In this document: one piece after another, positions 17,056-34,804 of the stretch
Numbering within the stretch: the stretch's first letter is position 1
Layout: each line of letters starts with the position of its first letter
NCBI GenBank assembly: GCA_963662275.1
Contig: OY759316.1
Location: forward strand, 640,001 to 704,000
DNA length: 64,000 bases
DNA from: Candidatus Cloacimonadales bacterium
GTDB lineage: Bacteria > Cloacimonadota > Cloacimonadia > Cloacimonadales > DAONDQ01
Direction: 5' to 3'
Program-made: the position numbers and the translations under genes
Notes under the pieces: generated by a model
Told to the model about the DNA's origin: nothing
Seen by the model: only the letters and a program-made list of their open reading frames with translations
The model's database searches: none

Positions 17056-17183
17056 CGGACACCAGACAGCTCCCAAAACCATAGACTTCTGCCTATCATG
17101 CTCCAGGTGACAACTCTCATCACAATAGATGCTCCATTTTGTTATAATTAGATTGCATTCTAATATTAAATCCTGCAAGGATG
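17056..17183. repeat. ~125-bp direct repeat 'A', copy 1 (copy 2 at 26139-26282)
   Basis: cggacacca.cagctcccaaaaccatagacttctgcctatcatgctc...gcattctaatattaaatcctg.aaggatg shared by both copies. Confidence 0.9.
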
Positions 17184-17240
17184 AAATCCGATAGCCTTAG
17201 GCGTAAGCCTCAGGTAACCGATTACCACACATCCATTTGA

Positions 17241-19133
17241 GGAGATGTCCCGAAACTAAATGATAGAAAAATAGCAACTATTAAATATTAATCATATTAC
17301 TTGACATATTGTTATAGGGTGTATTGTTGCCTTTAAAAACTAAGCATAGAGAGAATTATGAATTTCAGAGAGCACAATCCGAATCAGGGGACACTCTATG
17401 GACTTAATATTGAAGAGAGAATACCTCCCCAGCACATGGTTCGTTATGTTAACGATGTCGTTGAGCAACTGGACTTATCTGAGCTATACACAAGATACTC
17501 TGATGAAGGTACACCTGCTTATCATCCCAAGATGATGTTGAAGATCATTGTGTATGCCTATATCAATGGTATTTATACCTGTCGGAAGATAGCTAAGGCT
17601 GTTCGGGAGAACATCAATTTTATCTGGCTGGCAGGAGAACAGGAACCTGATTTCAGAACGATCAACACCTTTGCCTGGACTAAGTGTTCTGATATTCTTA
17701 TTGATGTATTTTATCAGGTAGTACTGAAAGCATCATCATTAGGATATCTTGATCTCGACACCTGTTTTGTTGACGGGACGACGATTCACGCAAATGCCGG
17801 CAAGAATTCCTACATCTGGAAAAGCAATGCGCTTCGTTATCAGGAACTGGTCAAGACACGAGTTGAGGGATTGTTTAAAAAGATCGAGGAATATAATCAG
17901 GAAGAGCAACAGCAATATGGAACCGCTGATCTTCTTGAGCTTGGTGAGCAATTGCATGCGGTTGAATCAGAGAAAACTGCTACAGTCGCATCTGAACAGA
18001 TCAGAGATAGACTGGTCTCAGCAGAAAACAAGCTGAAAGAAGCAATGTCCCGACTACAGAAAAATCATCCGTCAGATACTCGGGCTATCAAGAAAATCAA
18101 ATCTCTTTTGCGCGAAATCTCCAAATCAAAGAGCAATGATATAACTAAGCTGGAGAAATATGAGCAACAGCTTGAGATAATTGGAGAAGGACGCAGCAGC
18201 ACATCCAAGACTGATAATGATGCCACATTTATGCGATTGAAAAATGGACAGCTGGCACCGGGTTATGTTGCCAGTATCGGAACTTCAGAGCAATTTGTCA
18301 CAGGCATTCACTTATTCAATATCCCTAAAGAAACCGTTGAATTTCCCAATCTCATGGAGCAAATGCATGATGAATTGGGACAATATCCTACCGACGTTGT
18401 TGGAGATGCTGCCTATGGCACTGCGCTGAATTTGAATTATGCTGCTGAAAAAGAGATAACAAGCTATCTCAAGACCCAGGATTATAAGAGAGATTATCGG
18501 GACTCTCTTCTGACAGGCTTTAGCTATGATGAGGAGCATGATGAGTGGGTCTGTCAATTTAATCGGAGACTGGTCAAAATCAAGGAAGAAGAGACAGAGA
18601 AGAACGGTCCGAAACGAATCGTGAAAACCTATATATGTAATGACTGCAGAGAATGTCCTCACAATAAAAAGTGTATTCCCTACAAGGATAAAACACATAA
18701 ATCACTGACCTACGATCCTCATATAGCTCCACTAAAACGTCAGACAGTCAATAATCTGCTTTCTGAAAAAGGCGACAAGCTGAGAAAGCAAAGAGGCATC
18801 GAACCGGAGGCTGTATTTGCTTTCATGAAGTGGAACAGGAAGTTTGAGAGATTTACTGTCCGTTCATTGAGAAAATGCAAGGAACAGTTATCCCTCCTCT
18901 TTTTAGGACATAATATAGGGAAAATGTTTCTGCACTTACAAAATACTGAAGGAAAAGCCTGATGAAGACTCTTCCTACCAGAATTCAAACATGAATTAGG
19001 TAAATATTACTCCGTTTTTCCTTGTCTTTGCATCGCTTTTCGGAAACTATTGAGTAATTTAGTTTGCCTGTAAAAACAATCACATATTTTACAACAGAAG
19101 AAAATAAAATCATGCTAGTTTCGGGACATCTCC
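17241..19133 (+). mobile_element. IS1182-family insertion sequence, copy 1 (1893 bp)
   Basis: Perfect 18-bp terminal IRs GGAGATGTCCCGAAACTA; contains the transposase. Confidence 0.95.
17358..18962 (+). CDS. IS1182-family DDE transposase
   Basis: YHPKMMLK, PDFRTI, VDGTTIHANA, TDNDATFM, GDAAY, Cys cluster and IEPEAVF motifs. Confidence 0.93.
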   Translation: MNFREHNPNQGTLYGLNIEERIPPQHMVRYVNDVVEQLDLSELYTRYSDEGTPAYHPKMMLKIIVYAYINGIYTCRKIAKAVRENINFIWLAGEQEPDFRTINTFAWTKCSDILIDVFYQVVLKASSLGYLDLDTCFVDGTTIHANAGKNSYIWKSNALRYQELVKTRVEGLFKKIEEYNQEEQQQYGTADLLELGEQLHAVESEKTATVASEQIRDRLVSAENKLKEAMSRLQKNHPSDTRAIKKIKSLLREISKSKSNDITKLEKYEQQLEIIGEGRSSTSKTDNDATFMRLKNGQLAPGYVASIGTSEQFVTGIHLFNIPKETVEFPNLMEQMHDELGQYPTDVVGDAAYGTALNLNYAAEKEITSYLKTQDYKRDYRDSLLTGFSYDEEHDEWVCQFNRRLVKIKEEETEKNGPKRIVKTYICNDCRECPHNKKCIPYKDKTHKSLTYDPHIAPLKRQTVNNLLSEKGDKLRKQRGIEPEAVFAFMKWNRKFERFTVRSLRKCKEQLSLLFLGHNIGKMFLHLQNTEGKA

Positions 19134-19157
19134 GACATAAATAGACTTAACTAGTTG

Positions 19158-19368
19158 TTATTTGTTATCTTTCTGATCAATTTTCGCTTTCATTAATGCT
19201 GGCAGATTGATTGTCGGTAATGTATATTTGCCGTATAGTCCAAATGAGCTCACATTCCACAAATATCCCCTTACTGAATTTATTGTGATTTGGACTGCTG
19301 AATTGATAAGACCGTTCCTTTTTTCTTCCGGGTTTTCTTCAATGATGTTCAAATCAAATCTGGAAGCT
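19158..19368 (-). pseudogene. 3' remnant of a SecB-like chaperone gene homologous to 24742-25188
   Basis: GLINSAVQITINSVRGYLWNVSSFG...KAKIDQKDNK almost matches the intact gene; the 5' part is missing. Confidence 0.85.
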
Positions 19369-19401
19369 GCTTATTACAATGAGTGTTTTTAATACATACA
19401 C

Positions 19402-19430
19402 TAATGGACGGCTGTTGCTGCCGTCCATTA
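19402..19430. terminator. Hairpin, possible terminator for the minus-strand genes upstream
   Basis: taatggacggc-tgttgct-gccgtccatta. Confidence 0.55.
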
Positions 19431-19656: not shown

Positions 19657-20618
19657 CTACAAAATCGTAGGTGCTAAGACTTCGTCACAAGAAATATATC
19701 TAAATCCTTTTTTGTCAACAACTGCTAATTTAACTTGCCCGCCGACTGTTGGGATATCTTCCGTATATTTCTGAAAATCCATTTCTACTCGAAGCAGCAA
19801 GCAAGACAAATCAACTGCTTGTTGTAAACTTAATTCTCCGAGTTTTAAGATTTTTAAATCCTGTTGAATATCAGATACAGCTAGAATTTCTTCACTGATT
19901 TTGAGTAATTTCTCCTGCGATAATTCATAATCAGTAATATCCAACGTTTTGGTTATTATTGGAATAAGTTGTGGTATTAAATTCAACAATTTGAAATAAA
20001 AACCATAGAGAATACCTTCAGTGATCCCATATTGCCCATCATATACTACTGTCTGGAAATCAAGTCGTTGAATAAAACTGATTAGTTTATCATCCTCAAC
20101 TTGCATACCTGGCTGAGTATCATAAATCATGATTTGATACACTTCCGTTTTTTGAGATAATGGAGAGAAATTACTGATAATAAAAGTTGTGTAACCAACT
20201 GCATTGTTATTTGCGATGATTCTTTGATTTTCACTAATAGAAAATCTTTTAAATCAATGATTATCGTTTGTAAATCCATATTGCCGAATTGTGGATTTTG
20301 CCCGTTGATGTCTTTCTTTTCCTGTATCAATTCGGAGATTCTAATGTTGTTTATTCTTGCCGTGCCAGATGTGGTTATTGCAGTAAATTCATCATATTTA
20401 AAAAGCTTCTCTTCAAAATCTCGTGTGTGATGTGGTTTTTACTTAAAGAGATCCATAATTTCCTGTGGATCTAATGAAATTGGATTGGTTCCATTCTCTT
20501 TGTTTTACAATAAAGTGAAAAGGTCATTTTCTTCTATCACTCGAGTGAGTGATGTAACTCAAGAATCTGCTATAACTGCGAAACCATCTCTTGCTTTTAC
20601 TGTAGCTATAAATGTCAT
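19657..20618 (-). pseudogene. Disrupted proteasome-beta-like (Ntn-hydrolase) gene
   Basis: AGGAGG RBS then MTFIATVKARDGFAVIADS* (TGA at codon 20); further frame breaks; C-terminus IPTVGGQVKLAVVDKKGFRYI. Confidence 0.7.
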
Positions 20619-20778
20619 TTAATTCCTCCTTCACCGTCCCAAAATTAACTACTTATATAATACTAATCTTAAGAAAAATGTAAAGAGATTTTTACTCACT
20701 ATCTTTTCATGTAGCTCGACAAGCCCCCAAAGGTTACAAACCTTCGGGGAAAACATTATACGATCATATGGTACAATC

Positions 20779-20874: not shown

Positions 20875-21038
20875 TTCCCGTAGGGATGATAGATATTAAC
20901 ACTGGATTTCAATCCGGTGATATGACTGAAAATCTTCTAATTCCCATAGGGAAGAAAGATATTAACACTGGATTTCAATCCGGTGATATGAGACCCGGCA
21001 CTTTTCCTCTGAATCTCGCAGAGATGAAATCCCATAGC
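20875..21038. repeat. Tandem X-type hairpin units preceding the IS110 insertion
   Basis: agatattaacactggatttcaatccggtgatatga twice, each after an ATTCCC.TAGGGA hairpin, then aatctcgcagagatgaaatcccatagc. Confidence 0.8.
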
Positions 21039-21120
21039 TTACTATAGGAAGGTTAGAAAATTAAGGTAGAAAAACCTCCCTCGTTGATATACATAGATCA
21101 AATCAACAAAGGAGGTAACA

Positions 21121-22398
21121 ATGATTACCACATCAAAATCTAACCCAAAGAGGTTTTTTGTCAACTCAGAAATGATGCTTGTTGGCATTGATATCAGCAA
21201 GCACAAACACAGTGTGTATTTTTGTGATTTTACAGGTGAACGGAAGCGTAAGCCATTTTTTATTACAAACAATCATGATGGTTTTCAGTATCTGCTAAAA
21301 GAAGCAGAACAGCAAAAGCGTTTGTGGAATCTGAACGAGATTGTATTTGGAATGGAACCAACAGGTTCATATGTAAAGCCACTCCAGTACTTCTTGGAAG
21401 AACGCTGCTATCAAATCCAAAGCATCAACCCATTACACACTAAAAGATGGAAGGATATTGAAGATAATCATCCATCCAAGAATGATTTGAAAGACAGTAT
21501 TATCATTACCTCTCTGTTAAGAATGGGCAAGAGCATCCATCATCGGAGACCTGAAGGTGTTTTCGCGGAGTTGAACAACTATGCAGCTTATTATCACCAG
21601 TTAATCACAGATATTCGCAGGCAGAGGAACTATCTGGAAGCCTCTTATGCCTGTTACTTTCCTGAATTGAGTAACTTTTTCAAATTTAACAGTACGGGAG
21701 TAATGTATATCATGGAGTGTTTTCCTCTTCCTCAGGATATCGTAAATGCAGGATATGAGAATTTTCTGAAGATTATGAAAACAAAAAGCAAAGGGTGCAT
21801 AGCTACAGAGAAGCTTCACAGTTTATATCAGGTATCTCTAACAAGTATTGGCATGAGTCAGGGAGCGGATAGTGCGAGAGTGGTCATAAATGCGATCTAT
21901 GAGGATATCAGCTATAAACAATACCATCTCAAACAAATCAAAACAGCAATCATGACATGTGTAGATAAAATCAGTTATGGATCGTTATTGGTGACAATAC
22001 CTGGTTTGAGTAAAGTATCAGTGGGGTTAATTCTGGCGGAGACTGGAGATATCAATCAATATGGTCGATATCAGGATTTAGTCAAACTTGCCGGATTGAG
22101 TTTAAAACACAATCAATCAGGAGAATACCATGGGCAATATCATATCTCTAAGGTAGGAAGAGTAAGGTTGCGAAGGATCTTGTATATGCTTACTCTGGAA
22201 ATGATTATAAACAATCAATTAATCAATCAGATATATAATTATCAAGTAAAAAAGCGAGGTAATAACAAGGTCAAAACTATCGTTTCTTTGAGCAGTAAAT
22301 TACTGGGAATCATGTACTCAATGGTTAAATATGAAAGGTCGTTTGATCCTGAACAGCGAAAGCTATATGCAGGTTATTTAACTGAAAATAATCAGTGA
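21121..22398 (+). CDS. IS110-family DEDD recombinase/transposase
   Basis: VGIDISK, GMEPTG, KNDLKDS, IPGLS and QSG...ISKVG..LR motifs. Confidence 0.93.
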   Translation: MITTSKSNPKRFFVNSEMMLVGIDISKHKHSVYFCDFTGERKRKPFFITNNHDGFQYLLKEAEQQKRLWNLNEIVFGMEPTGSYVKPLQYFLEERCYQIQSINPLHTKRWKDIEDNHPSKNDLKDSIIITSLLRMGKSIHHRRPEGVFAELNNYAAYYHQLITDIRRQRNYLEASYACYFPELSNFFKFNSTGVMYIMECFPLPQDIVNAGYENFLKIMKTKSKGCIATEKLHSLYQVSLTSIGMSQGADSARVVINAIYEDISYKQYHLKQIKTAIMTCVDKISYGSLLVTIPGLSKVSVGLILAETGDINQYGRYQDLVKLAGLSLKHNQSGEYHGQYHISKVGRVRLRRILYMLTLEMIINNQLINQIYNYQVKKRGNNKVKTIVSLSSKLLGIMYSMVKYERSFDPEQRKLYAGYLTENNQ

Positions 22399-22439
22399 GC
22401 CAAGAAAAAAAAGTAGTCAAAAAATAATGGAGGTGTTTA

Positions 22440-22670
22440 GATTGGTTCACTCGCCGGATGATGTAGTCATTAGGCACTAAGGCTTGTTTACAAGACCTTC
22501 TACCATAGCTCATTATAGCACACCGGCGGGTATTATCTCAGATAGGATAAAGTAAGAATAGGATACCATCAGAAGGTAATCCAGTATATCAGCAAGATCG
22601 GGATGTAGAACCAAGAGAGCTTTGATAAGTAATATTCGATTTAATCATAGAATTCAGATCGAAAATCAGC
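22440..22670 (+). ncRNA. Putative bridge/seek RNA region (boundaries approximate)
   Basis: Lies in the 3' NCR of the IS110; contains ccatagc (left target flank) and tatatcagc (element right end); followed by a strong hairpin. Confidence 0.55.
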
Positions 22671-22673
22671 GTC

Positions 22674-22728
22674 TCTGGAACCCTGCAATGACGCTTCGGT
22701 ACCCTACGCGTCATTGCAGGGTTCCAGA
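22674..22728 (+). terminator. 21-bp perfect stem-loop in the IS110 3' region
   Basis: tctggaaccctgcaatgacgc / gcgtcattgcagggttccaga. Confidence 0.65.
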
Positions 22729-22825
22729 AAGCCAAGTACTATGAATATATTATAATATATAACTATCTAACTATATCAGCCTAACGTGTGAACGTCAGGT
22801 AACATATCCCCCAAACACCATTAGA

Positions 22826-24718
22826 GGAGATGTCCCGAAACTAGCATGATTTTATTTTCTTCTGTTGTAAAATATGTGATTGTTTTTACAGGCAAACTAA
22901 ATTACTCAATAGTTTCCGAAAAGCGATGCAAAGACAAGGAAAAACGGAGTAATATTTACCTAATTCATGTTTGAATTCTGGTAGGAAGAGTCTTCATCAG
23001 GCTTTTCCTTCAGTATTTTGTAAGTGCAGAAACATTTTCCCTATATTATGTCCTAAAAAGAGGAGGGATAACTGTTCCTTGCATTTTCTCAATGAACGGA
23101 CAGTAAATCTCTCAAACTTCCTGTTCCACTTCATGAAAGCAAATACAGCCTCCGGTTCGATGCCTCTTTGCTTTCTCAGCTTGTCGCCTTTTTCAGAAAG
23201 CAGATTATTGACTGTCTGACGTTTTAGTGGAGCTATATGAGGATCGTAGGTCAGTGATTTATGAGTTTTATCCTTGTAGGGAATACACTTTTTATTGTGA
23301 GGACATTCTCTGCAGTCATTACATATATAGGTTTTCACGATTCGTTTCGGACCGTTCTTCTCTGTCTCTTCTTCCTTGATTTTGACCAGTCTCCGATTAA
23401 ATTGACAGACCCACTCATCATGCTCCTCATCATAGCTGAAGCCTGTCAGAAGAGAGTCCCGATAATCTCTCTTATAATCCTGGGTCTTGAGATAGCTTGT
23501 TATCTCTTTTTCAGCAGCATAATTCAAATTCAGCGCAGTGCCATAGGCAGCATCTCCAACAACGTCGGTAGGATATTGTCCCAATTCATCATGCATTTGC
23601 TCCATGAGATTGGGAAATTCAACGGTTTCTTTAGGGATATTGAATAAGTGAATGCCTGTGACAAATTGCTCTGAAGTTCCGATACTGGCAACATAACCCG
23701 GTGCCAGCTGTCCATTTTTCAATCGCATAAATGTGGCATCATTATCAGTCTTGGATGTGCTGCTGCGTCCTTCTCCAATTATCTCAAGCTGTTGCTCATA
23801 TTTCTCCAGCTTAGTTATATCATTGCTCTTTGATTTGGAGATTTCGCGCAAAAGAGATTTGATTTTCTTGATAGCCCGAGTATCTGACGGATGATTTTTC
23901 TGTAGTCGGGACATTGCTTCTTTCAGCTTGTTTTCTGCTGAGACCAGTCTATCTCTGATCTGTTCAGATGCGACTGTAGCAGTTTTCTCTGATTCAACCG
24001 CATGCAATTGCTCACCAAGCTCAAGAAGATCAGCGGTTCCATATTGCTGTTGCTCTTCCTGATTATATTCCTCGATCTTTTTAAACAATCCCTCAACTCG
24101 TGTCTTGACCAGTTCCTGATAACGAAGCGCATTGCTTTTCCAGATGTAGGAATTCTTGCCGGCATTTGCGTGAATCGTCGTCCCGTCAACAAAACAGGTG
24201 TCGAGATCAAGATATCCTAATGATGATGCTTTCAGTACTACCTGATAAAATACATCAATAAGAATATCAGAACACTTAGTCCAGGCAAAGGTGTTGATCG
24301 TTCTGAAATCAGGTTCCTGTTCTCCTGCCAGCCAGATAAAATTGATGTTCTCCCGAACAGCCTTAGCTATCTTCCGACAGGTATAAATACCATTGATATA
24401 GGCATACACAATGATCTTCAACATCATCTTGGGATGATAAGCAGGTGTACCTTCATCAGAGTATCTTGTGTATAGCTCAGATAAGTCCAGTTGCTCAACG
24501 ACATCGTTAACATAACGAACCATGTGCTGGGGAGGTATTCTCTCTTCAATATTAAGTCCATAGAGTGTCCCCTGATTCGGATTGTGCTCTCTGAAATTCA
24601 TAATTCTCTCTATGCTTAGTTTTTAAAGGCAACAATACACCCTATAACAATATGTCAAGTAATATGATTAATATTTAATAGTTGCTATTTTTCTATCATT
24701 TAGTTTCGGGACATCTCC
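22826..24718 (-). mobile_element. IS1182-family insertion sequence, copy 2 (inverted, near-identical to copy 1)
   Basis: Same 18-bp IRs, same 1893-bp length and identical protein. Confidence 0.95.
22997..24601 (-). CDS. IS1182-family DDE transposase
   Basis: Translation identical to 17358-18962. Confidence 0.93.
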   Translation of the reverse strand: MNFREHNPNQGTLYGLNIEERIPPQHMVRYVNDVVEQLDLSELYTRYSDEGTPAYHPKMMLKIIVYAYINGIYTCRKIAKAVRENINFIWLAGEQEPDFRTINTFAWTKCSDILIDVFYQVVLKASSLGYLDLDTCFVDGTTIHANAGKNSYIWKSNALRYQELVKTRVEGLFKKIEEYNQEEQQQYGTADLLELGEQLHAVESEKTATVASEQIRDRLVSAENKLKEAMSRLQKNHPSDTRAIKKIKSLLREISKSKSNDITKLEKYEQQLEIIGEGRSSTSKTDNDATFMRLKNGQLAPGYVASIGTSEQFVTGIHLFNIPKETVEFPNLMEQMHDELGQYPTDVVGDAAYGTALNLNYAAEKEITSYLKTQDYKRDYRDSLLTGFSYDEEHDEWVCQFNRRLVKIKEEETEKNGPKRIVKTYICNDCRECPHNKKCIPYKDKTHKSLTYDPHIAPLKRQTVNNLLSEKGDKLRKQRGIEPEAVFAFMKWNRKFERFTVRSLRKCKEQLSLLFLGHNIGKMFLHLQNTEGKA

Positions 24719-24741
24719 GACATAAATAGCTTAATTTGTTC

Positions 24742-25188
24742 TTATTTGTTATCTTTCTGATCAATCTTCGCTTTCATTAAGGCTGGTAAATTAATTGTTG
24801 GTAATGTATATCTGCCATAAATTCCAAATGAGCTCACATTCCACAAGTAGCCCCGTACTGAATTCAATGTGATTTGAACTGCTGAATTGATTAGACCACT
24901 TTTTTGTTCAGGATTCTCATCAATAATATTCAAATCAAAACGTGAAACAGCCTTTATAGCAACGGAATATCCTGGAAGTTTTTCTTTTATGCAATTCACT
25001 TTTATTCCTATCACAATTCTGAATTCATTCGATTCCTTATTTTGGAACAGGTCAAAATCAATATCCAATGGAAGGTCTTTCAAAGCTTGAGATGATTTGA
25101 GAGCTTTCTCAACAGGAAAGATGGATTCAAGGTTACACGTAAGAACGACAAAGTCCTTTAACTCTAATTCAGATCGTAGAATATCCAT
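24742..25188 (-). CDS. SecB-like chaperone of a toxin-antitoxin-chaperone (TAC) module
   Basis: ~150 aa, beta-rich; C-terminal ...VRGYLWNVSS.....YTLPTINL resembles the SecB R..I...T......LP.IN motif; third gene of a TA operon. Confidence 0.75.
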   Translation of the reverse strand: MDILRSELELKDFVVLTCNLESIFPVEKALKSSQALKDLPLDIDFDLFQNKESNEFRIVIGIKVNCIKEKLPGYSVAIKAVSRFDLNIIDENPEQKSGLINSAVQITLNSVRGYLWNVSSFGIYGRYTLPTINLPALMKAKIDQKDNK

Positions 25189-25191
25189 GAA

Positions 25192-25662
25192 TTACCCCTG
25201 CCCATTAAAGATGACAGTACGTTTTGACAATTTTTTGAATTTATATTGGTCACTCGGTTCTACTACTTCTGCAACTTTATCCATTTGTTTCCATAGATTA
25301 TCATTAACGGGCTTCATGTCACAGAATGTAGAATACAAAGGAGGATTGATCTTGATAAATACATTTAGATTCAGTTTCTTTTTCAGAGTAGCTAAAGTTT
25401 CCAAGTTAATGATCTTGTTGCAACTGAATAGCTGGCTAATATAGGATTTTGAAACTCCTAATTTTTCTGCAAGGTCGTTCCTGTTCATGTTGTTTTCTTT
25501 GAGATAGAAATCAATCTGTTCCATAATAATAGAATTCATGATCATTGTTTCAACTTCGATTTGTTCTTCCAAGTTAGAAGTATCAATCAGATTTGCCAGC
25601 TTATTTTGCAGTTCTATATTTTTACCATGTGATTTCATAATCGTACTCCGCAATTGAACCAA
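25192..25662 (-). CDS. HigA-like XRE HTH antitoxin with C-terminal extension (putative ChAD); start probably 25638
   Basis: MNRNDLAEKLGVSKSYISQLF HTH plus a ~50-aa tail; overlaps the toxin gene. Confidence 0.8.
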   Translation of the reverse strand: MVQLRSTIMKSHGKNIELQNKLANLIDTSNLEEQIEVETMIMNSIIMEQIDFYLKENNMNRNDLAEKLGVSKSYISQLFSCNKIINLETLATLKKKLNLNVFIKINPPLYSTFCDMKPVNDNLWKQMDKVAEVVEPSDQYKFKKLSKRTVIFNGQG

Positions 25663-26138: not shown

Positions 26139-26355
26139 CGGACACCAGGCAGCTCCCAAAACCATAGACTTCTGCCTATCATGCTCTAAATGACATGACT
26201 CATCACAATAGATGTTGTAGATCATAGATGCTCCATTTTCAAATAATTAGAATGCATTCTAATATTAAATCCTGTAAGGATGGCAGAAGATAACCCATAG
26301 CGTGAGCTATGGGTGGCGAAATCCCAAGACCCTTAGAACCCCGCCAGGGGTGACA
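26139..26355. repeat. Repeat A copy 2 followed by an intact X site (26268-26355)
   Basis: aatcctgtaaggatg-N-aacccatagcgtgagctatggg-N-ttaga-accccgccaggggt-gaca. Confidence 0.85.
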
Positions 26356-26369: not shown

Positions 26370-27311
26370 TCAAGGATAAATACCTAATCTAACACATTCT
26401 TCAGGACTTGGAACCATACACATATCAATCTGTGAAATCTTGTTATTCATGATCTTGATAAGCATGGTTGCTGATAAATAAATTTTTGTGCCTTGTGCAA
26501 TGACCAAACAATAATCATTTTCTCCACCATGACGAGCCAATTCAGCAAAAACATGAGTTGTACTTTTTCTAATCGCTTCAAATTTATGAGATAGATAATC
26601 TACAAATGTTACTTTACTATGCATTTCATCAAAAACCCATTGCGATGTATATCTTATGTCCTCAGCTAAATACGGTTGAAGTACTGAAATATCCAAGTTA
26701 TTGAATGACTTTGCAACAATGATACATGCGTCTATTAGGCTTAAACTCGAGTTATTGCTGGCTGTTCTTTTTAATTTACAATCACCTGTCGTACCCATAT
26801 AGAATTTCTTCCCTGTTTCTCTTTCCCGATAAACTGCAACTGAATCATCAGTCCCAATGAATTCGAACTTCTTTACGAACTTATCATTTTCACAAAAAGT
26901 ATAATTATGACTTAGTGAATTCTCAAAGACCCATCCATCTGGTGTAAAAACACGTTTTTCTTTGGTATTTTTCATAATACATGCCGATATTCTTTTATCT
27001 GGATCACCTTCCCAATTAATATGTCCAAATTCTGCCCAATCACAACTAATTGTAAAACCGCGCTGCTGATCGACTACTGCCATATCAATCGTTTTCCCAT
27101 CCCTTTGAAAGACTAATCCTTTGCTTTCCAAGAAATGAACATATTTTTCAATAAACTCAGGTGACATAAATCCAACTCTTGCTATTTCTGAATCGCAACA
27201 GAGTGTTTGATTAGGAACATCTGTTTTAAACTGTTCCCATCCTCCAGGATATTGAATCTGAATCACTTCAAGTTTGATTATTAAAGATATTCCCTCAATT
27301 AAGACAGCCAT
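26370..27311 (-). CDS. Hypothetical two-domain protein, C-terminal part SnoaL/NTF2-like
   Basis: 313-aa ORF with GGGAG RBS; FNNLDISVLQPYLAEDIRYTSQW pattern. Confidence 0.7.
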   Translation of the reverse strand: MAVLIEGISLIIKLEVIQIQYPGGWEQFKTDVPNQTLCCDSEIARVGFMSPEFIEKYVHFLESKGLVFQRDGKTIDMAVVDQQRGFTISCDWAEFGHINWEGDPDKRISACIMKNTKEKRVFTPDGWVFENSLSHNYTFCENDKFVKKFEFIGTDDSVAVYRERETGKKFYMGTTGDCKLKRTASNNSSLSLIDACIIVAKSFNNLDISVLQPYLAEDIRYTSQWVFDEMHSKVTFVDYLSHKFEAIRKSTTHVFAELARHGGENDYCLVIAQGTKIYLSATMLIKIMNNKISQIDMCMVPSPEECVRLGIYP

Positions 27312-27367: not shown

Positions 27368-30300
27368 TCATCTGTATAAATCTTCTTTTTTTATCCACCA
27401 AGCTTTTTTAGTCCTGGCATATTTGTAGCCAGGCTTTTGGACAGTGCTCCAATGTAATGTTGCTGAATCCCATTCCCTAATTTCATCTGTACTTAATTCC
27501 TGCGGGAATAACTCTAATTGTGAATTTTGTTCTATCAATTTCTTTAGTGGTTTCTTCTTTTCAGGTTCAGGTTCTATTTTTGGTTTATTGGGTTGGTCTG
27601 GTTTTGGAAGAATTGTATCTATTTCCCCATCCTTTTTCTCAGAAGCAGAAGTCGATGGCATAGCTATAGCTTCGTATTGTTCAAGCATTTCCCATAGTGG
27701 TTTTAATGCCTCAATTCGATTTGAATAATATTCTGCACCTCTGACTCTGAAGAAATTCCACCCACACCTTTCCAGAACCTTCTGTCGCATCAAGTCATCC
27801 ATAAATCGTTCAGCATCATGAAATTTGTCGCCATCACACTCTATCGCTATCTTAGTACCATCCTTTAAAAGCACAACTAAATCAATTCTATATCTTCCCT
27901 TGGCTACTTCATATTGAGGTATAACATTATAACCACTATCAACAATATCATTATATACGTCTACTTCAAACCAGCTTTCATAAGGTTGGGGTTGGTTTCC
28001 ATGTTGGCGTGGTACGTTTTTTGTTTCCATAATTTGCTTAGGACGATAATTAAGGAAATGATCAAGTAGCTTATATCGTAAATCATTTGCATTACTCAAA
28101 TCTTCTAACATGACAGAATGAAATAACCAAACTTGGTCTTTTGCTCGACTCATAGCAACATTAAATCTTCTCTCATCATTAGCACCAGTCAATGCAGATC
28201 TCTGATGATTGTGAGCAGTCACCAAACTCAAAAACATGATATCTCGTTCATCTCCCTGAAAACTTGCTGAATTACCACAAATGATCTTTCTTGCGTTAAA
28301 TTCATTTTCCCCTAATTTGCTAATTAATAATCTTTCGATAATCGAAGCTTGTGCGCTCCCCTGTAAAGCTATTACTCCAAATGTTTTTTCGTTATACTCT
28401 GGTTTACTTATTAGTTCTAACATTTTGTTAGCAATACTTTCAGCTTCAACTTTATTTACAATATTCTGACCCTCTCCTTCTTTGTTCCCTGTTTGACAGA
28501 ACTCTGTCATCAGAGGTGGAAGCCTGTTTTCCGAATATTGTCTGAGTGGATAGAGCCCTTTTTTCTCTGGTGAATAAAAGTGCTTATTTGAAAACTCGAT
28601 TATCTCAGGCATACATCTGAAATGTTCCCTCAATACAGTCATACCGTTACATACTACTTTAGCAAAATCGAACAGACTATACTCGATTCCAAATAATTGG
28701 CTTCGAGGAATATCATGTAAATGTTTTACAATGAATGGATCCATTTGATTTTGATTGATACCAACATACTCAGGATTTGTTTGTTTATCGTCACCAACAA
28801 TGATGATATTTTTTGAAATATAAAGCAGGAAAATAGCATCGGCTCCTAATTGACTTGCTTCATCAATTATCACAAAATCATACATTCCCTGCATAGGTGT
28901 TATCGCTTCTGTTACTTTATATAAGGGCATGATCCAACATGGAATTGAATCTTTGCAGTCTTCCATTTCTTTTTGAGCTTGTTTTCTAAATTTTATAGCC
29001 CTTGGACCTCTTCCTGTCTTCCCTATTTTCGCAACAGCTAAAACCCATGCTGATAAATGCTTTCTCAGTTGAGGATTGCTATTCAAACTTTCGAGCACAT
29101 GAAGCCATGCTTTATTTGAGGACAGTTGTGTAATCAATCTTTCTTCCTTAAGATCGAATTCGTTAATTTCATTCGTGAGTTTTTCTTCTATATCGTCTTT
29201 CATAAGCTCTGAAATCATGCTATATGCATGCTTAAAACAGATTGCGCTGTTTAATGATCCTAAATTCTTTGATTCAAAAGTGCCTGACAATATATCTTGA
29301 ACTAATCTCGGGAATGATTGTTTTAATAAATCTTGTAGCTTAATAAAATTATGGTAAGCAATACTCTCATGATTTAGAGTATCAATTTGAGAAAGATGAT
29401 CTGCATAATTTTCACAAACAATATCAGTAAGGTCTTTAATTAAATCCTTTGCTAATGGATGATTTCTTTCATTGGACAAGTACTTGATTGCGAGTTCATA
29501 ATTTCTCTTATATTCCTTTTCAAAAGAAAGCAATCTGCTATGATCAACATAATTGATTGTTTCGTTGATCTTAGCAGTATTCAAATTACCAAAATCCAGA
29601 GCTATGAATGGTTCAATGCGTGATTTCAAATCGTAGGCTGTTTTGAATAGATTCAATAGATTTGATAATTCCTGATTTAATTGAATATATGATTGAATTG
29701 TTTTTGAATATGATTTATCGCTTTTATCGAAGGGATTTGACCAAAGAATATTCAGTTCTGCAATATCCTGCTTAATTCTCAAATCTTCAAGAACAGTTTT
29801 GAATTCTGAAACTGTGTCACATTGACTTCCGTTCACTATTACAGCTTCAATAAAATATAATCTTTCTTTGATATCCTTAGAGAGTAAGTGTTTCTTTAAT
29901 TTGTATATCATCCCAGACAACTTGTTGCCTAAGTTTTGAAAATTAAGCAATGCGAGAGCATCAGCTTTTAACTGGGTTATATCTTTATGATTAGGATAAG
30001 TAATTATGTAATCTCTTTCGAATTCAAGCAATCTCTGTATAGGATGTTCATTGATCAAACTATTTGTTTTCGAGACCCTTTCGCTCCAGTGACCAAGATT
30101 TTTTGGGTAATCATTGATAATTTCAGATTTTAATATGAAAGCAATCCTTTCAATATTGATAAAGACTTCTTTAAGGTCTGATAGGTGATTGAGTAACTGT
30201 TCGTAATCATTGCTTTCAATTATTACATCTCTTGCTTTCCCTTGATATTTTTCTTTTAACGCATTCTGTATTTCACAATATTCCATAAGATTTCTTGCAG

Positions 30301-32119
30301 AAGGCAGCTTTTCTTTCAAGGGGATTCTCAATTCAAATGCTCTACAATCCAAGTTACTGTAATACTTGTGAAGAGAAAACAACTCTTCAATATTCGGTAT
30401 GTAACTGATGTATTTGATATCAGTAATGTCATCGTGGAACCAAGAAAAAATGGATTTATCGTTTTCTAATCTTTCTGCAATATCAATTAACTTTCCCTGG
30501 TAATTACTATTGATAATCTGATTCCGAGTCGATTGTTCTTTAACACTCAGCCATTTATTAGTTGTTTCCGCTTTCTTTTCATTATTATCAGTTAATTTAG
30601 AAGAAAGCTGAGCAATTAGTTTTTTACTTTCTCCAATATTTGCATCAGCAATTTTAGCGTTAATTTCATTCACGCTTGCTTCAAGTTCTTTTACTGATGA
30701 AGAATCTCCGCTTAACAGATTGACTGTCAGACTCTGAAACTCTGGAGGTAACTTATCTTTCAGTACTTCTAAGGCTCTTTTCGTATAAGCAGTCACAAGG
30801 ACTTTTTTCCCATTTGCCAACAAATGACAGATGAGATTAGCTATCGTGTGTGACTTTCCCGTCCCGGGAGGACCTTGAACAAGAACTTTATTGTTCATTC
30901 TTGTTTTTTTAACGATTTCAATTTGCTCATTATTGTATTTTTTAGGGAAATATATAGTATTATCACTCTCTATAAAATGCGTGTTTTCTATACGATCTGG
31001 ATTATCAGGATCATCTTTCGCCTGGTCATCAGTGATAATGTCATTTAGAGAAGGTATATCTATGTTATCAGGAGACGAACTAATTTGAGAAATGATATTA
31101 GCATACATAGCAGTAAAACTTCTTGTATCTCGTTTCCTCATAAGCAGTGCAGGAGCGAAATATACAGTTGGTTCAACTGGTATTACCTTGGGTTTGGCTT
31201 GTTCATTCTTAAATTGACAATCAGCTCTTAATCTTTCGGAAAAAAACTGAATTGTATTGGTAAATTGATTATCAAAGATATCATCAGTTAGTTTTTCATC
31301 ATCAATATGTTGTTTTGTAACATTCTCAGCATCAACGATCGTATTACTGTCGAATTGTGTTGGTAAATCAATAATTGCATCTGTTTCTATCTGGAGTTTA
31401 CCATCAGGACTTGAAGTGACGCAAATATATGTTTCGTTATTTGAAAAATCGAAAGTAACTTCTGCCTTTAAAGTAAATAAATGCCTGCATATTCTTGGCG
31501 TATCATTATTCTCATGAAATGCCAAAAGACCGATACCAAATACTAATTCGAATTCTTCACCGAATTGTTGTACTTTATTGAAAATACTAAAAAACCTTTT
31601 GTAAATTTCACTTTGAAGATCAAACTCACTTTGAAGTTTATTGTATTGGGCACAAACTTCTTTATATGCCCTTCTATCTAACGATAATTGATTGTTAAGA
31701 TATTTCTGAAATTCTGCTACCACTTCCGGTTTTTCCGTTATATTAATCAAAATCCCATCATCTTCAATATTCTGTTTTAAAAATGGTATTTTACTCTCGT
31801 CAATAAGACTTGCAGAATCAATCCATTGAGTAAGGGTTGAACTCAATTTTGGATATGATGGTCGTTGAGGCTCATTTCTGGGTTTGTTTATCTTCAATAA
31901 ATAGTCAGAATCAGAATCATAGTTTGGAAAAGTAAAACAATCAAAAATTTCGACAATGGGAATGTCTGATAACCAAATAATCTCTGGATATTGGGTCTGT
32001 GCATTTTCAATATCCCTTACCGGTTTACTCCTTAATTTTGAAAACTCAAGCAAGTAATTGAATATCTGTAAGTATTTTGCCTTGTTATCATTTCTATCAG
32101 CATTATCAAACCGTTTCAT
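27368..32119 (-). CDS. Upf1-like SF1 helicase fused to a C-terminal Vsr/DUF559-like restriction-fold nuclease
   Basis: QGPPGTGKS, IIDEASQ, VGDDKQ, EHFRC, FQGDERD and RFNVAMSRAK; then ESWFE..YRIDLV..IAIECDG..FH..RQKVLERCGW. Confidence 0.9.
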   Translation of the reverse strand: MKRFDNADRNDNKAKYLQIFNYLLEFSKLRSKPVRDIENAQTQYPEIIWLSDIPIVEIFDCFTFPNYDSDSDYLLKINKPRNEPQRPSYPKLSSTLTQWIDSASLIDESKIPFLKQNIEDDGILINITEKPEVVAEFQKYLNNQLSLDRRAYKEVCAQYNKLQSEFDLQSEIYKRFFSIFNKVQQFGEEFELVFGIGLLAFHENNDTPRICRHLFTLKAEVTFDFSNNETYICVTSSPDGKLQIETDAIIDLPTQFDSNTIVDAENVTKQHIDDEKLTDDIFDNQFTNTIQFFSERLRADCQFKNEQAKPKVIPVEPTVYFAPALLMRKRDTRSFTAMYANIISQISSSPDNIDIPSLNDIITDDQAKDDPDNPDRIENTHFIESDNTIYFPKKYNNEQIEIVKKTRMNNKVLVQGPPGTGKSHTIANLICHLLANGKKVLVTAYTKRALEVLKDKLPPEFQSLTVNLLSGDSSSVKELEASVNEINAKIADANIGESKKLIAQLSSKLTDNNEKKAETTNKWLSVKEQSTRNQIINSNYQGKLIDIAERLENDKSIFSWFHDDITDIKYISYIPNIEELFSLHKYYSNLDCRAFELRIPLKEKLPSARNLMEYCEIQNALKEKYQGKARDVIIESNDYEQLLNHLSDLKEVFINIERIAFILKSEIINDYPKNLGHWSERVSKTNSLINEHPIQRLLEFERDYIITYPNHKDITQLKADALALLNFQNLGNKLSGMIYKLKKHLLSKDIKERLYFIEAVIVNGSQCDTVSEFKTVLEDLRIKQDIAELNILWSNPFDKSDKSYSKTIQSYIQLNQELSNLLNLFKTAYDLKSRIEPFIALDFGNLNTAKINETINYVDHSRLLSFEKEYKRNYELAIKYLSNERNHPLAKDLIKDLTDIVCENYADHLSQIDTLNHESIAYHNFIKLQDLLKQSFPRLVQDILSGTFESKNLGSLNSAICFKHAYSMISELMKDDIEEKLTNEINEFDLKEERLITQLSSNKAWLHVLESLNSNPQLRKHLSAWVLAVAKIGKTGRGPRAIKFRKQAQKEMEDCKDSIPCWIMPLYKVTEAITPMQGMYDFVIIDEASQLGADAIFLLYISKNIIIVGDDKQTNPEYVGINQNQMDPFIVKHLHDIPRSQLFGIEYSLFDFAKVVCNGMTVLREHFRCMPEIIEFSNKHFYSPEKKGLYPLRQYSENRLPPLMTEFCQTGNKEGEGQNIVNKVEAESIANKMLELISKPEYNEKTFGVIALQGSAQASIIERLLISKLGENEFNARKIICGNSASFQGDERDIMFLSLVTAHNHQRSALTGANDERRFNVAMSRAKDQVWLFHSVMLEDLSNANDLRYKLLDHFLNYRPKQIMETKNVPRQHGNQPQPYESWFEVDVYNDIVDSGYNVIPQYEVAKGRYRIDLVVLLKDGTKIAIECDGDKFHDAERFMDDLMRQKVLERCGWNFFRVRGAEYYSNRIEALKPLWEMLEQYEAIAMPSTSASEKKDGEIDTILPKPDQPNKPKIEPEPEKKKPLKKLIEQNSQLELFPQELSTDEIREWDSATLHWSTVQKPGYKYARTKKAWWIKKEDLYR

Positions 32120-32652
32120 AAGGATCTCCTAAATGAAAGGACAACTTTGAACCAGAGGACATATATAATTCTCAATCCTTGAGAACCATTATGACTCCTT
32201 TTATATAATTATATATTTATACATAAATGACTAAGCGCAAGGTTTCTAATAATGTTGAATAACTGAAATGAGAGTATATATGTCAACAGAAATTGATATT
32301 GCTAATACTCTATGAATCCTTTGTCAAAAATATTATACCAATTAATATTGCTTTCTATTTTGAATTTAAAAGAATCGCGATTTATCTGTAAATTAAAGAG
32401 ATATAGCTCTGGAGCAGATTCGGGTCTTTTTCTATTTTACTTTCTATCTTATTTTCATGAAAGCACAAAAAAAACTTTATAATTAGTTTGACAGGAATTG
32501 GCAGTCTATTTTAACGTCTGCTTATTATTAAAAGAGCAGAAGGAAGTTGCAGCTTCCCCCTGCTTGATAAAACGAAAATGCGTGTAACATGGTCGTTTTT
32601 GTATTTCAAATGGCTAAATCAAATCGTTTTGTCAAGTAGTTTGTTCCGAAGT

Positions 32653-34298
32653 CTCACATCCCCCCGTTTTTCAAACCAGGTATTTTTAGCTGCTGATTAT
32701 CCAGCCATTTTCCTGCAAAAGGATTGAGCCTGTACCTTGTCACGGTGGCAAAACACATCTCTATCAGCATTGACAGACGATAATACACAAAGTCATATAT
32801 CTGCTTCCACTGTTTATTTGAGTATTTCATAAGATTTGGGAAGGCATCTAAAAATACGCCAGCATACTTTTTCAGAGAATACAGGTAGCACATAGCTAGC
32901 AGAAGCAGCTGGTTCATGTTTTTCAGACGGGTATATGATTTCAGTTGTATCTTTTCCCAACCATATTCCTGCTTGATATGGCGATGGACCTCTTCGATTT
33001 TCCAGCGTATGCGATACATCCGCAAAACCTTCTCCATGATAGCATTTTCCGTCAGATAAGGTTGTGTCGGAAAGTCGCAGATGAAATAGAAATATCCCTG
33101 TCTGCCACTAGCATCGGGACTGAACTGTGCAACAATAAGCCAGGCATCTGTAGTATCAGGGTATTTTACAGGGTAAGGATTCAAACGCAGCTTCACCCGC
33201 GTTAAACCACATTTTATCTGTTGTCCTGATTCTTGCAGATTGAATGTATGATCGAGTTTCACTGTCTTTGCCACTGCCATGAAGTTCTGTTCGCAGCCAT
33301 CCATGATAAGACTTCTTTCACCTGTTGATCTGATGATATAGCTTAGTCCATGTTCATGCAGAAAGCTGAATAGATTTCGGTTGTCAAAGCCACGGTCGAA
33401 AATAGTTACTCCACGGTTACCACTTGCAAGAATAATCCCCACTAGCCGGTCTTCCATGATCTGAGAGACGCTATCCAGTTCCATGTTTCGGGCTATCAGG
33501 TCTGAACTGATGGGTTTTATCTCATAGCCTGTACTGCCTGCCTGATAGGCAATTATATTCAGCAATGCATAGCCCTGCTGATCATGACTGCCGGTGCTGC
33601 CATCACGCACCTTCTGCAATCCCTCCATCTTTTTGGCTTTGGTTTTTACGATATCACTTTCATCAACTATGATGCCTGTCTCATCATCAAAACCCTGGCA
33701 CTGATGCCTAATTATTTCCGCTTGCAGCTTATCTCCTAAGGGCTTCTTATTCAAATGTCGGGTGAAACGTTCGCAGAGCTTTTTAACCGTGATTGGTTCA
33801 TTTAGCTGTTTCGCTATTTGGAGCATAATTACAGATTTACTTTTCAGTATCCCTAAGCAGATATCCTGTATGAACTTATACACAGGTAGAGATTGCGTTT
33901 CTCTAAAATTATTCAGAAATTGTAACAATTTTACTTGCAAGGTTTCTCTGGTTTTGATTTGCTTCTTATTAATCATGGGTGTCTCCTTCTTAGGTTTGGT
34001 TTAGTGCTTGAACAAAAGATCGGAGACACTTTTTTTGTACAGTTTTATTATGGACATTCTATATAGTTATCTTATTTTCTCACATAATTTTATAAGTTTT
34101 ATTAAAATACCTGCTTTTTGCTTTTACCGTGAAAACACAACTCTTCTGTTTACCGTAAATTACAAATTGCACTAGTTTCTGTTTAGGAGTTTTGACCAAC
34201 CAGTGATGTTAAACAGATTTTCAAAGTCGGCAAAACGTTTGACTGTTACTATAAACGCTTCTAAACTAATTGTTAAGAAAATTACGGGGGGATGCCTG
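32653..34298 (-). mobile_element. IS4-superfamily insertion sequence with a 14-bp target duplication
   Basis: Ends c-tca-catccccccgt and acggggggatg-cct-g; direct repeat gtttgttccgaagt at 32639-32652 and 34299-34312. Confidence 0.9.
32654..33976 (-). CDS. IS4-type DDE transposase
   Basis: VDESD, FDRGFD and YRIRWKIEEVHRHIK (YREK motif). Confidence 0.9.
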   Translation of the reverse strand: MINKKQIKTRETLQVKLLQFLNNFRETQSLPVYKFIQDICLGILKSKSVIMLQIAKQLNEPITVKKLCERFTRHLNKKPLGDKLQAEIIRHQCQGFDDETGIIVDESDIVKTKAKKMEGLQKVRDGSTGSHDQQGYALLNIIAYQAGSTGYEIKPISSDLIARNMELDSVSQIMEDRLVGIILASGNRGVTIFDRGFDNRNLFSFLHEHGLSYIIRSTGERSLIMDGCEQNFMAVAKTVKLDHTFNLQESGQQIKCGLTRVKLRLNPYPVKYPDTTDAWLIVAQFSPDASGRQGYFYFICDFPTQPYLTENAIMEKVLRMYRIRWKIEEVHRHIKQEYGWEKIQLKSYTRLKNMNQLLLLAMCYLYSLKKYAGVFLDAFPNLMKYSNKQWKQIYDFVYYRLSMLIEMCFATVTRYRLNPFAGKWLDNQQLKIPGLKNGGM

Positions 34299-34438
34299 GT
34301 TTGTTCCGAAGTGTACTTCTGTCCTGCAAAGGATGGTGAAAGAATTATTATTTAGTGTAACCCTTTAGCAAAACGGAATACTTCTATCTTGTAATTGATA
34401 ATTCATCGCTCGAAAGAGCTTAAAAAAGGAGAAAGACC

Positions 34439-34603
34439 ATGGATAAATGGGAATTCTACAAGGATAAAAATGTTGAATGGAGATGGAAATGTACAGCTCC
34501 AAATGGCAAAGAAGTAGGTGCTTCTACTGAAGGTTATAAAAACCGTTCGGATTGTGAAGCAAATGCCAGACGTTTTGGATATCCAGGCAATCTTAAACGC
34601 TAA
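34439..34603 (+). CDS. DUF1508/YegP-like small protein, 54 aa (MDKWEFYKDKNVEWRWKCTAPNGKEVGASTEGYKNRSDCEANARRFGYPGNLKR), not in the ORF track
   Basis: Manual translation; E.YKD...EWRW...A.NG..VG.S.EGY motif; AGGAG RBS. Confidence 0.85.
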   Translation: MDKWEFYKDKNVEWRWKCTAPNGKEVGASTEGYKNRSDCEANARRFGYPGNLKR

Positions 34604-34640
34604 CTTAAATGTCAGTTAAATCAACTGACATTACAAACTG

Positions 34641-34670
34641 AAAACCTCTATTGCAAAAAATAGAGGTTTT
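34641..34670 (+). terminator. Intrinsic terminator
   Basis: aaaacctctatt-gcaaaa-aatagaggtttt. Confidence 0.65.
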
Positions 34671-34712
34671 CTATTTTACTAAAATCTTTAATGTAAATTT
34701 GTTCAATTATCG

Positions 34713-34804
34713 TGTCACCCCTTGCAGGGTTCAAATCGATTGCGTATTTATATGTTTCCCATAGCTCACGCTATGGGCTAGCGGAGTTGCATCCTTCCAG
34801 GATT
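34713..34804 (-). repeat. Intact X site in reverse orientation
   Basis: Reverse complement reads aatcctggaaggatg...agcccatagcgtgagctatggg...tttga-accctgcaaggggt-gaca. Confidence 0.85.

What the first reader, a model, noticed from the sequence alone, without database searches (positions are those of the whole stretch)
17056..34804. Cassette-like island: co-oriented cargo genes each followed by a conserved multi-hairpin 'X' site
Seen: an ~88-bp element with the layout small hairpin (ATCCTGnAAGGAT)-G-~9 nt-A(A/G)C-larger hairpin-~20 nt-TTWGA-14-nt hairpin-GACA. It occurs at 17169-17240+19134, 21012-21038+22781-22825+24719 and 26268-26355, reversed at 34713-34804, with tandem partial units at 20875-20991. 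The three forward copies end ~15-20 bp from the stop codon of a minus-strand cargo gene (secB remnant, secB, 26370 ORF). All non-IS cargo from 19.1 to 32.1 kb is on the same strand and includes TA and helicase-nuclease genes. Copies vary in sequence but conserve structure and spacing. Known: integron attC arrays have this gene+hairpin logic, and HUH Y1 enzymes act on ssDNA hairpins. Inference: an integron-like cassette array built on REP-type rather than attC sites, possibly mobilised by a Y1/RAYT enzyme. No integrase and no RYYYAAC/GTTRRRY attC cores were seen in X.
Basis: partly seen in the sequence, partly recalled or inferred. Interest (0 to 1): 0.9.

Follow-up and report, generated by a model that had tools for sequence, protein, structure and literature searches.

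The report
Transposase-linked repeats, not gene cassettes
The hairpin 'X' sites are copies of a genome-wide DNA repeat that normally brackets a small single-strand transposase gene, not integron-like cassette sites, although in this genome they oddly tend to point into anti-phage gene islands.

Summary
X is real but is not a cassette site. It is a ~90-bp three-hairpin repeat with about 60 copies in the genome; its first two hairpins match Rfam Acido-Lenti-1. Inward-facing X pairs bracket short IS200-like Y1 genes of subclass 1.2 here, across the phylum (16 of 29 loci against 2 of 30 for other RAYTs) and in other phyla (46 of 80). This resembles the published TIRtrons and REPINs. The fixed distance to a stop codon does not generalise (3 of 27 other copies here, 1 of 65 in relatives), cargo homologs elsewhere mostly lack X, and no integron integrase or attC core was found. 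The region is an 18.6-kb defence island inserted between normally adjacent cyclase and M48 genes. X1 is a hybrid of X3 and X2, the joint of an old duplication; IS1182 replaced hairpin 3 in X1 and X2, and IS110 split X2. Unexplained: in this genome X points into restriction-modification islands (12 against 2 of 29 ends), but not in five relatives, and another repeat family does likewise. Earlier scan notes reported REP-like repeats and the REP-targeting intron in this genome.

The parts
14455..16608 (+). CHASE2-adenylate cyclase, left core flank; abuts the M48 gene in relatives
   Evidence: Pfam; adjacency in L021, L023, L032
16789..16814 (+). copy of a second dispersed repeat family ('r16800'), also at 20782-20807
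17020..17168 (-). 5' remnant of a PDC-M04A-like candidate defence gene (the label DUF3800 is recalled); 91% identical to 26139-26267
   Evidence: PADLOC E 9e-14
17169..17240 (+). X1, hairpins 1-2 and spacer; hybrid: hairpin 1 like X3, rest like X2; its GACA lies at 19134-19137
17241..19133 (+). IS1182-family element standing in place of X1 hairpin 3, no target duplication
   Evidence: NF033551 over cut-off
19158..19373 (-). 3' remnant of the SecB-like gene, 86% identical to the tail of the intact copy
19657..20620 (-). broken hypothetical gene (stops and frame changes), no family hit
20875..20991 (+). two tandem hairpin1-hairpin2 units of a sister subfamily (42 clusters in the genome; arrays next to the Y1 gene at C1:3137171)
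21012..24722 (+). X2, split by IS110 at the ATAGC foot of hairpin 2 and with hairpin 3 replaced by IS1182; GACA at 24719-24722
21034..22784 (+). IS110-family element (6 genome copies)
   Evidence: NF033542 over cut-off
22826..24718 (-). second IS1182 copy, in place of X2 hairpin 3
24742..26047 (-). toxin-antitoxin-chaperone-like module: putative toxin (25622-26047), HTH protein (25192-25662), SecB-like protein (24742-25188); a 73%-identical copy lies at C1:1839990-1841364 without an adjacent X
   Evidence: HTH_3; PF02556 in 6 of 16 homologs; PD-T4-9_C weak; toxin: only a 0.89 Gp49 lead
26139..26267 (-). second, shorter PDC-M04A-like remnant
26268..26355 (+). X3, complete three-hairpin copy; Acido-Lenti-1 on the minus strand at 26268-26313
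26370..27311 (-). 313-aa ORF of no known family; homologs in 5 of 231 other genomes of the phylum
27368..32119 (-). SF1 helicase-nuclease (AAA_11/12 + MTES_1575), candidate defence protein
   Evidence: PDC-S37 E 1e-65
32653..34298 (-). IS4-like element with ordinary 11-14 bp target duplications (10 copies), not X-targeted
34439..34603 (+). small DUF1508 gene
34713..34804 (-). X4, complete copy, GACA end facing into the island
34805..35030 (.). mosaic of other dispersed repeat families, including the CATCTAG tandem family 'r34950'
35196..36431 (+). SH3-M48 peptidase, right core flank

Best explanation
X is the repeat unit of a REP/TIR-type family that belongs to short IS200-like Y1 (HUH) enzymes of subclass 1.2, and the window shows a defence island that has collected such repeats and the elements that target them. 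SHOWN: X has a covarying three-hairpin structure, about 60 dispersed copies, inward-facing pairs around subclass-1.2 Y1 genes in many phyla, adjacent inverted doublets in relatives, and presence/absence at orthologous intergenic sites without change of the flanking genes. SHOWN: 16609-35195 lies between genes that abut in relatives; X1 is a chimera of X3 (hairpin 1 and left flank) and X2 (rest and right flank); IS1182, IS110 and a group II intron insert at fixed points of X. INFERRED: the Y1 enzyme binds the ssDNA hairpins and spreads X in trans, as RAYTs do REPs. INFERRED: the X2-[secB-HTH-toxin-remnant]-X3 block was once duplicated or circularised by recombination between X2 and X3 at the foot of hairpin 1, leaving X1 as the joint, and then eroded by deletions. 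INFERRED: the lean of X towards defence islands arises because repeat-rich intergenic patches and foreign DNA accumulate at the same places, some cargo splitting X doublets, and not through a dedicated cassette machine.
For: Structure. Copy number. Y1 link: inward pair around C1:440460-440897 and arrays beside C1:1450970-1451413; motifs DH[IV]H / WQ / Y--Q--HH match subclass 1.2 of Quentin et al. (PMC6006769); X at 16 of 29 such loci against 2 of 30 class-2 RAYT loci (p = 5e-5); cross-phylum 46 of 80 loci, 23 with both nearest copies facing inward; Rfam's own model 15 of 40 against 0 of 20. Doublets: 8 of 34 clusters in G001, 5 of 32 in G039, 3 of 5 in G040. Gain/loss alone: G001 has X between dGTPase and prfB homologs and at L137, where the G000 orthologs have no X hit within 2.5 kb. 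Empty site. Chimera: hairpin-1 region 22/23 identical to X3 against 13/23 to X2; linker-to-spacer 69% to X2 against 52% to X3. Targets: IS1182 0 of 19 with a duplication of 3 bp or more, and by eye 9 of 19 lack the small hairpin of an X-family unit, as described for IS1272 (PMC5678879); intron 4 of 6 full copies in X-family units, 2 in sister repeats.
Against: The polarity in G000 is strong (12 of 29 X ends have a restriction/helicase/methylase marker within 10 kb on the GACA side, 2 on the other side, discordant 10:0, p = 0.002; random intergenic 7.2%) and a passive model does not predict it well. Five X copies abut an intact partner repeat at the GACA end, so there the cargo did not split a doublet. 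Two homologous RM islands at different sites share X, and their homology ends about 10 bp outside it. No enzyme activity was tested. 13 of 29 and 34 of 80 subclass-1.2 loci had no hit with my model.
Confidence: 0.72

Rival explanations
1. X works as a polar capture site or mobilisable end: the Y1 enzyme cuts near the GACA end and joins incoming single-stranded DNA, or moves X-cargo-X units in trans, so defence islands are built between inward-facing X copies, as the Y1 gene itself is.
For: Inward X pairs bracket four islands of 8-23 kb, including this one, against one outward pair under 30 kb; 8 of 25 marker clusters have X facing in or inside, none facing only away; GACA-side DNA has lower GC (paired p = 0.011) and more atypical hexamers than random intergenic flanks (p = 0.007), the other side does not; G001 copies face Gabija, Cas9 and a type II RM; the X1 crossover falls at the foot of hairpin 1.
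Against: No polarity in five other genomes: 1 against 1 of 74 one-strand clusters (two of the genomes are fragmented, and only two marker families were used). Repeat family r34950 shows the same lean (9 against 1 of 43). The left border of this island lies outside X1. GACA-to-gene distances range from 3 to over 1000 bp. 17 of 25 marker clusters have no X. X at the adk and lpxA borders is not conserved (2 weak hits in 29 loci and 0 in 29).
Confidence: 0.15
2. One reading: an integron-like array in which each gene plus its downstream X is an excisable cassette.
For: Three co-oriented gene-X junctions at 14-20 nt; the X1 chimera is what a circle junction of the X2-X3 block would look like; X is targeted by an IS110 and a hairpin-seeking intron, as attC sites are (recalled).
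Against: Distance rule absent elsewhere (3 of 27; 1 of 65); homologs of the cargo lack X (26 of 27 and 5 of 5), as does the second TAC-like copy in the same genome; two of the three junctions are duplicates; the helicase, the 19657 gene and DUF1508 have no X behind them; no IntI, no attC cores.
Confidence: 0.05
3. X is chiefly a structured RNA or 3'-UTR element (Acido-Lenti-1 as an sRNA) selected behind genes.
For: Rfam lists RF01687 as sRNA; the Acido-Lenti-1 strand is the sense strand of the three upstream cargo genes here; covariation is real.
Against: No bias to gene ends (stop on the GACA side in 16 of 30 and 29 of 65); inverted pairs round Y1 genes and adjacent doublets fit a DNA repeat; both strands fold alike.
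Confidence: 0.08

Closest known systems
TIRtrons / TIRYT with GGGGWSAS-type TIRs (Di Nocera et al. 2013, PMC3733652; section 16 and passages read, Figure 9 not visible)
   Same: Tyrosine transposase gene flanked by inverted repeats that also form dimers and clusters elsewhere; X ends in GGGGTGAC-like letters (exact GGGGWSAS in 6 of 30 ends, within one mismatch in 17 of 30).
   Different: I could not see the published TIR sequences or the protein alignment, so identity is not shown; the passages read do not mention Acido-Lenti-1, islands or targeting by other elements.
TnpA-Y1 subclass 1.2 (Quentin et al. 2018, PMC6006769; passages and Table 1 read)
   Same: DH[IV]H, WQ, Y--Q--HH motifs, about 148 aa, low copy number, 34-51% identity between copies in a genome.
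   Different: That table lists 'REP: no' for 1.2; here 46 of 80 cross-phylum loci carry X-type repeats. Bertels et al. 2017 (10.1101/119735, passages) noted an IS200 'Group 3' with abundant flanking 16-mers, which may be the same enzymes (not tested).
Rfam RF01687 Acido-Lenti-1 (Weinberg et al. 2010, PMC2864571; supplement tables and alignment excerpts seen)
   Same: Matches the reverse strand of hairpins 1-2 of X above gathering and flanks subclass-1.2 genes in 15 of 40 loci.
   Different: [quoted passage not shown]
REPIN-RAYT and REPtron/BIME systems (PMC3116915, PMC3333891; passages read)
   Same: Inverted doublets, tandem arrays, singlets as remnants, a Y1 gene flanked by its repeats.
   Different: No GTAG-tagged single palindrome; three hairpins; the enzyme scores as IS200-like (NF033573) rather than as RAYT (NF047646).
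IS1272 stem-loop-replacing transposition (PMC5678879; passages read)
   Same: IS1182-family element without target duplication that stands in place of a hairpin.
   Different: Targets here are 13-14-bp hairpins of a dispersed repeat; empty sites are inferred from paralogous repeats, not from strain pairs.
Integron attC cassette arrays (features recalled)
   Same: Locally: co-oriented accessory genes with a hairpin site just behind the stop.
   Different: No IntI, no attC cores, no genome-wide link to stops, cargo homologs lack the site.

Membership tests
Integron cassette array | Integron integrase IntI | tested here: not met
   TIGR02249 best 105.8 bits against cut-off 265; none of the 14 control genomes passed either, so there was no positive control
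Integron cassette array | Paired RYYYAAC / GTTRRRY cores (consensus recalled) | tested here: not met
   0 of 30 X copies; IntegronFinder itself not available
Integron cassette array | Site directly behind each cargo gene and travelling with it | tested here: not met
   3 of 27 other copies, 1 of 65 in relatives; 1 of 27 secB and 0 of 5 ORF26370 homolog loci
Integron cassette array | Excised circular cassettes | tested here: inconclusive
   Only assembled contigs were available; no such joint; contigs drop rare variants
REP/TIR repeat of a Y1 enzyme (REPtron / TIRtron) | Many dispersed extragenic structured copies | tested here: met
REP/TIR repeat of a Y1 enzyme (REPtron / TIRtron) | Copies flank a Y1 gene in inverted orientation | tested here: met
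REP/TIR repeat of a Y1 enzyme (REPtron / TIRtron) | Inverted doublets and clusters | tested here: met
   G001 8 of 34, G039 5 of 32, G040 3 of 5 clusters; one adjacent X-X doublet in G000
REP/TIR repeat of a Y1 enzyme (REPtron / TIRtron) | Enzyme binds and cleaves the ssDNA repeat | not testable with these tools
   needs biochemistry
GGGGWSAS-type TIRs of Di Nocera 2013 | GGGGWSAS motif and identity with the Figure 9 sequences | tested here: inconclusive
   exact in 6 of 30, one mismatch in 17 of 30; relatives 4 and 21 of 68; figure and alignment not held
TnpA-Y1 subclass 1.2 (partner enzyme) | DH[IV]H, WQ, Y--Q--HH, about 148 aa | tested here: met
   28 of 29 loci; 72 of 80; no tree built
Rfam Acido-Lenti-1 | Score above gathering (37 bits) | tested here: met
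   X3 44.3 and X1 40.3 bits; X2 and X4 not listed at gathering
IS200/IS605 transposon | Near-identical multicopy elements with non-inverted ends | tested here: not met
   the three intact copies are 34-51% identical and the ends are inverted
Toxin-antitoxin-chaperone (cargo) | Toxin, HTH antitoxin and SecB-like chaperone in one operon | tested here: inconclusive
   SecB-like and HTH supported; toxin only a weak lead, no solved-structure match

The most novel reading that the evidence does not exclude
Subclass-1.2 Y1 enzymes use their Acido-Lenti-1-type repeats not only to copy the repeat but as polar sites for capturing, duplicating or moving kilobase defence loci, so that in some lineages inward-facing X pairs act as an integrase-free alternative to integrons; X1 would be a fossil joint of such an event.
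Probability: 0.13. Interest if true: 0.82.

Novelty: new member of a known kind. Interest (0 to 1): 0.36.

Why it matters
It removes a false candidate for a new cassette system. It also joins three separate entries: an Rfam 'sRNA' of unknown function, a Y1 subclass tabulated as having no REPs, and the TIRtrons. That gives Acido-Lenti-1 a testable role as the DNA substrate of a domesticated transposase and explains why mobile introns and IS elements turn up beside it. I found no paper making this link (searches: in a library that lacks most subscription journals). If the polarity towards defence islands proved mechanistic, it would bear on the open question of what domesticated Y1 enzymes do for their hosts.

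Tried and rejected
Reads: four runs, all assembled contigs; no circle or deletion at X; the listed 20812-26139 and 22799-26290 joints are explained by paralogous repeats. No RNA holder was listed, which is no evidence on expression. No close strain was found: metagenome relatives of M48 are at most 47% identical, genome relatives at most 54%, so strain-level shuffling is untested. The toxin scan of genome contigs found nothing; X had no match in plasmids. A loose structure regex was unspecific for two-hairpin forms (461 hits against 587 in the control) and specific only with hairpin 3 (11 against 0). My regex classing of IS1182 sites (12 of 19) had false positives, so I quote the by-eye count. 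No replichore bias (15 of 29). The idea that X marks conserved hot spots at adk and lpxA was rejected (different subtypes, not conserved). The class-2 RAYT at window 363-1004 is not X's partner. One literature search returned only irrelevant papers; a search for REP-joined duplications found none, so that precedent is recalled only. An own-genome search with RF01687 gave no answer, so no genome-wide Rfam count exists. For the marker test I dropped 8 of 44 markers by hand as housekeeping or unclear helicases; markers in the other genomes were not filtered. Gene calls come from my own crude ORF caller.
Full report
OBSERVATION. The four X copies are at the stated places. X3 and X4 are complete and fold into three hairpins. 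An alignment of 18 genome copies supports all three stems by compensatory change: 94% of cells paired, 12 of 18 pairs with two-sided changes, slid controls 35-47%. In X1 and X2 the third hairpin is absent: an IS1182-family element (NF033551) stands exactly between TTWGA and GACA, and an IS110 splits X2 at the foot of hairpin 2. The GACA ends lie 20, 19 and 14 nt from minus-strand stops. X1 and X3 match Rfam Acido-Lenti-1 above gathering.

THE REGION. In relatives the cyclase gene abuts the M48 gene (L021, L023, L032), and none of 17 M48 loci has an X hit. So 16609-35195 is an insertion; its non-IS parts are 33-36% GC against 41-42% for the flanks. It carries a toxin-antitoxin-chaperone-like module (SecB-like by PF02556 in 6 of 16 homologs; toxin identity weak), an unknown ORF, a helicase-nuclease with a PADLOC hit and two remnants of a PDC-M04A-like gene: a defence island. 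The phylum name Cloacimonadota comes from an earlier scan note and was not checked by me.

X IS A GENOME-WIDE REPEAT WITH A PARTNER ENZYME. There are 59 nhmmer hits (0 in the reversed genome), 60 model hits, and hits in 16 of 40 relatives. Of 15 Y1 genes in the genome, four are short IS200-like ones; one is bracketed by an inward pair of X, two more have X-family arrays beside them, and the fourth is broken. Their motifs match subclass 1.2 of Quentin et al. (PMC6006769, passages and Table 1). Across the phylum X lies at 16 of 29 such loci and 2 of 30 class-2 RAYT loci (p = 5e-5). In 80 loci from other phyla, 46 have hits and 23 have both nearest copies facing the gene. Rfam's independent model hits 15 of the first 40 of these 80 loci and 0 of 20 of the 30 control loci. 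In relatives X often forms adjacent inverted doublets, and it is present or absent between the same orthologous genes. This is REP/REPIN behaviour (PMC3116915, PMC3333891; passages). Di Nocera et al. (PMC3733652, section 16) already described tyrosine transposase genes flanked by GGGGWSAS-type inverted repeats as TIRtrons; X fits loosely, but their figure was not visible. Bertels et al. noted an IS200 group with abundant flanking 16-mers.

THE CASSETTE READING FAILS ITS OWN TESTS. A stop within 30 nt of GACA occurs at 6 of 30 ends; the 27 other than X1-X3 give 3, as expected by chance (null 8.6%, p = 0.41); relatives give 1 of 65. Homologs of secB have X in 1 of 27 loci, there as a doublet in the other orientation; ORF26370 homologs in 0 of 5; the genome's second TAC-like copy has none adjacent. 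There is no IntI over cut-off (without a positive control) and no attC core pair (0 of 30).

WHY IT LOOKS LIKE AN ARRAY. X1 shares its left flank and hairpin 1 with X3 (91%; 22 of 23 bases) and its linker, hairpin 2, spacer and right flank with X2 (69% against 52% for X3; secB tail 86%). It is the joint expected if the block between X2 and X3 was duplicated in tandem or passed through a circle, with the crossover at the foot of hairpin 1. This is one old event; whether the Y1 enzyme or ordinary recombination between repeats made it cannot be told. Gene conversion of X1's middle from another subtype would not explain both shared flanks. Later insertions aimed at X added to the look: IS1182 (0 of 19 copies with a duplication of 3 bp or more; by eye 9 of 19 replacing a small X-family hairpin), the mode described for IS1272 (PMC5678879, passages); IS110 (2 of 6 copies in X); and elsewhere a group II intron (4 of 6 full copies in X-family units).

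WHAT REMAINS UNEXPLAINED. In this genome X points into defence islands: 12 of 29 ends have a restriction, helicase or methylase marker within 10 kb on the GACA side and 2 on the other (discordant 10:0; random 7.2%; 8 of 44 markers dropped by hand). Ends of one island and two homologous islands are not independent; by cluster it is 8 of 25 with X facing in and none facing only away. Inward pairs bracket four islands, and two related RM islands at different sites stop being homologous about 10 bp outside X. Against a mechanism: five other genomes show 1 against 1 of 74 (partly fragmented, fewer marker families, though G001 copies do face Gabija, Cas9 and a type II RM); another repeat family leans the same way (9 against 1 of 43); five X copies abut an intact partner repeat at GACA; and this island's left border lies outside X1. 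I give the capture-site reading about 15%.

VERDICT. X is a new member of a known kind, the repeat of a TIRtron/REPtron-type Y1 system, and the island is an ordinary defence island decorated and partly duplicated through it. [quoted passage not shown] Unseen figures and supplements of PMC3733652, PMC6006769 and PMC2864571 may bear on that claim. Interest 0.36.

Noticed in passing
window 34945-35020 and 43 clusters in G000: A CATCTAG tandem repeat family ('r34950') lies with fixed orientation at the upstream border of several defence islands (9 against 1 of 43 for a marker within 10 kb). Its partner enzyme, if any, is unknown.
   Followed up: partly
L007 4061-5389 (C1:925060-926391) and five other copies: Group II intron with a GTACG 5' end, inserted just behind hairpin 2 on the strand opposite X; 6 of 6 full copies are in X-family or sister repeats.
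   Followed up: partly
L006/L007/L210 (C1:909-932k) and L008/L209 (C1:4014-4029k): Two homologous SNF2 ... type III res islands (about 91% identical ends, different middles) at different chromosomal sites; both have X at the res end.
   Followed up: partly
C1:931932, 1679014, 3062780, 3267380, 4013792: X is followed within 2-8 nt by an oppositely oriented repeat of family r16800, a recurrent mixed doublet.
   Followed up: partly
L006 2394-3263 (C1:907390-908262) and 12 other sites: Thirteen copies of a tyrosine recombinase gene with equal scores; at this site it lies beside a 380-aa ORF that looks like an IS91-type transposase (label recalled).
   Followed up: no
L003 (C1:3135461-3137106): An IS4-like copy sits inside an IS1182 copy just behind a subclass-1.2 Y1 gene, within the type I RM island bracketed by inward X copies.
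   Followed up: no
L004 (C1:4083540-4083884): A fourth short Y1 gene with an internal TGA stop, flanked by a different hairpin family.
   Followed up: no
window 48956-57688: A 2910-aa protein with lamin-tail, PKD, Ig and Fn3-associated domains.
   Followed up: no
L076 (G038): An X copy lies inside a type III RM operon, between a DUF1016-like gene and res.
   Followed up: no
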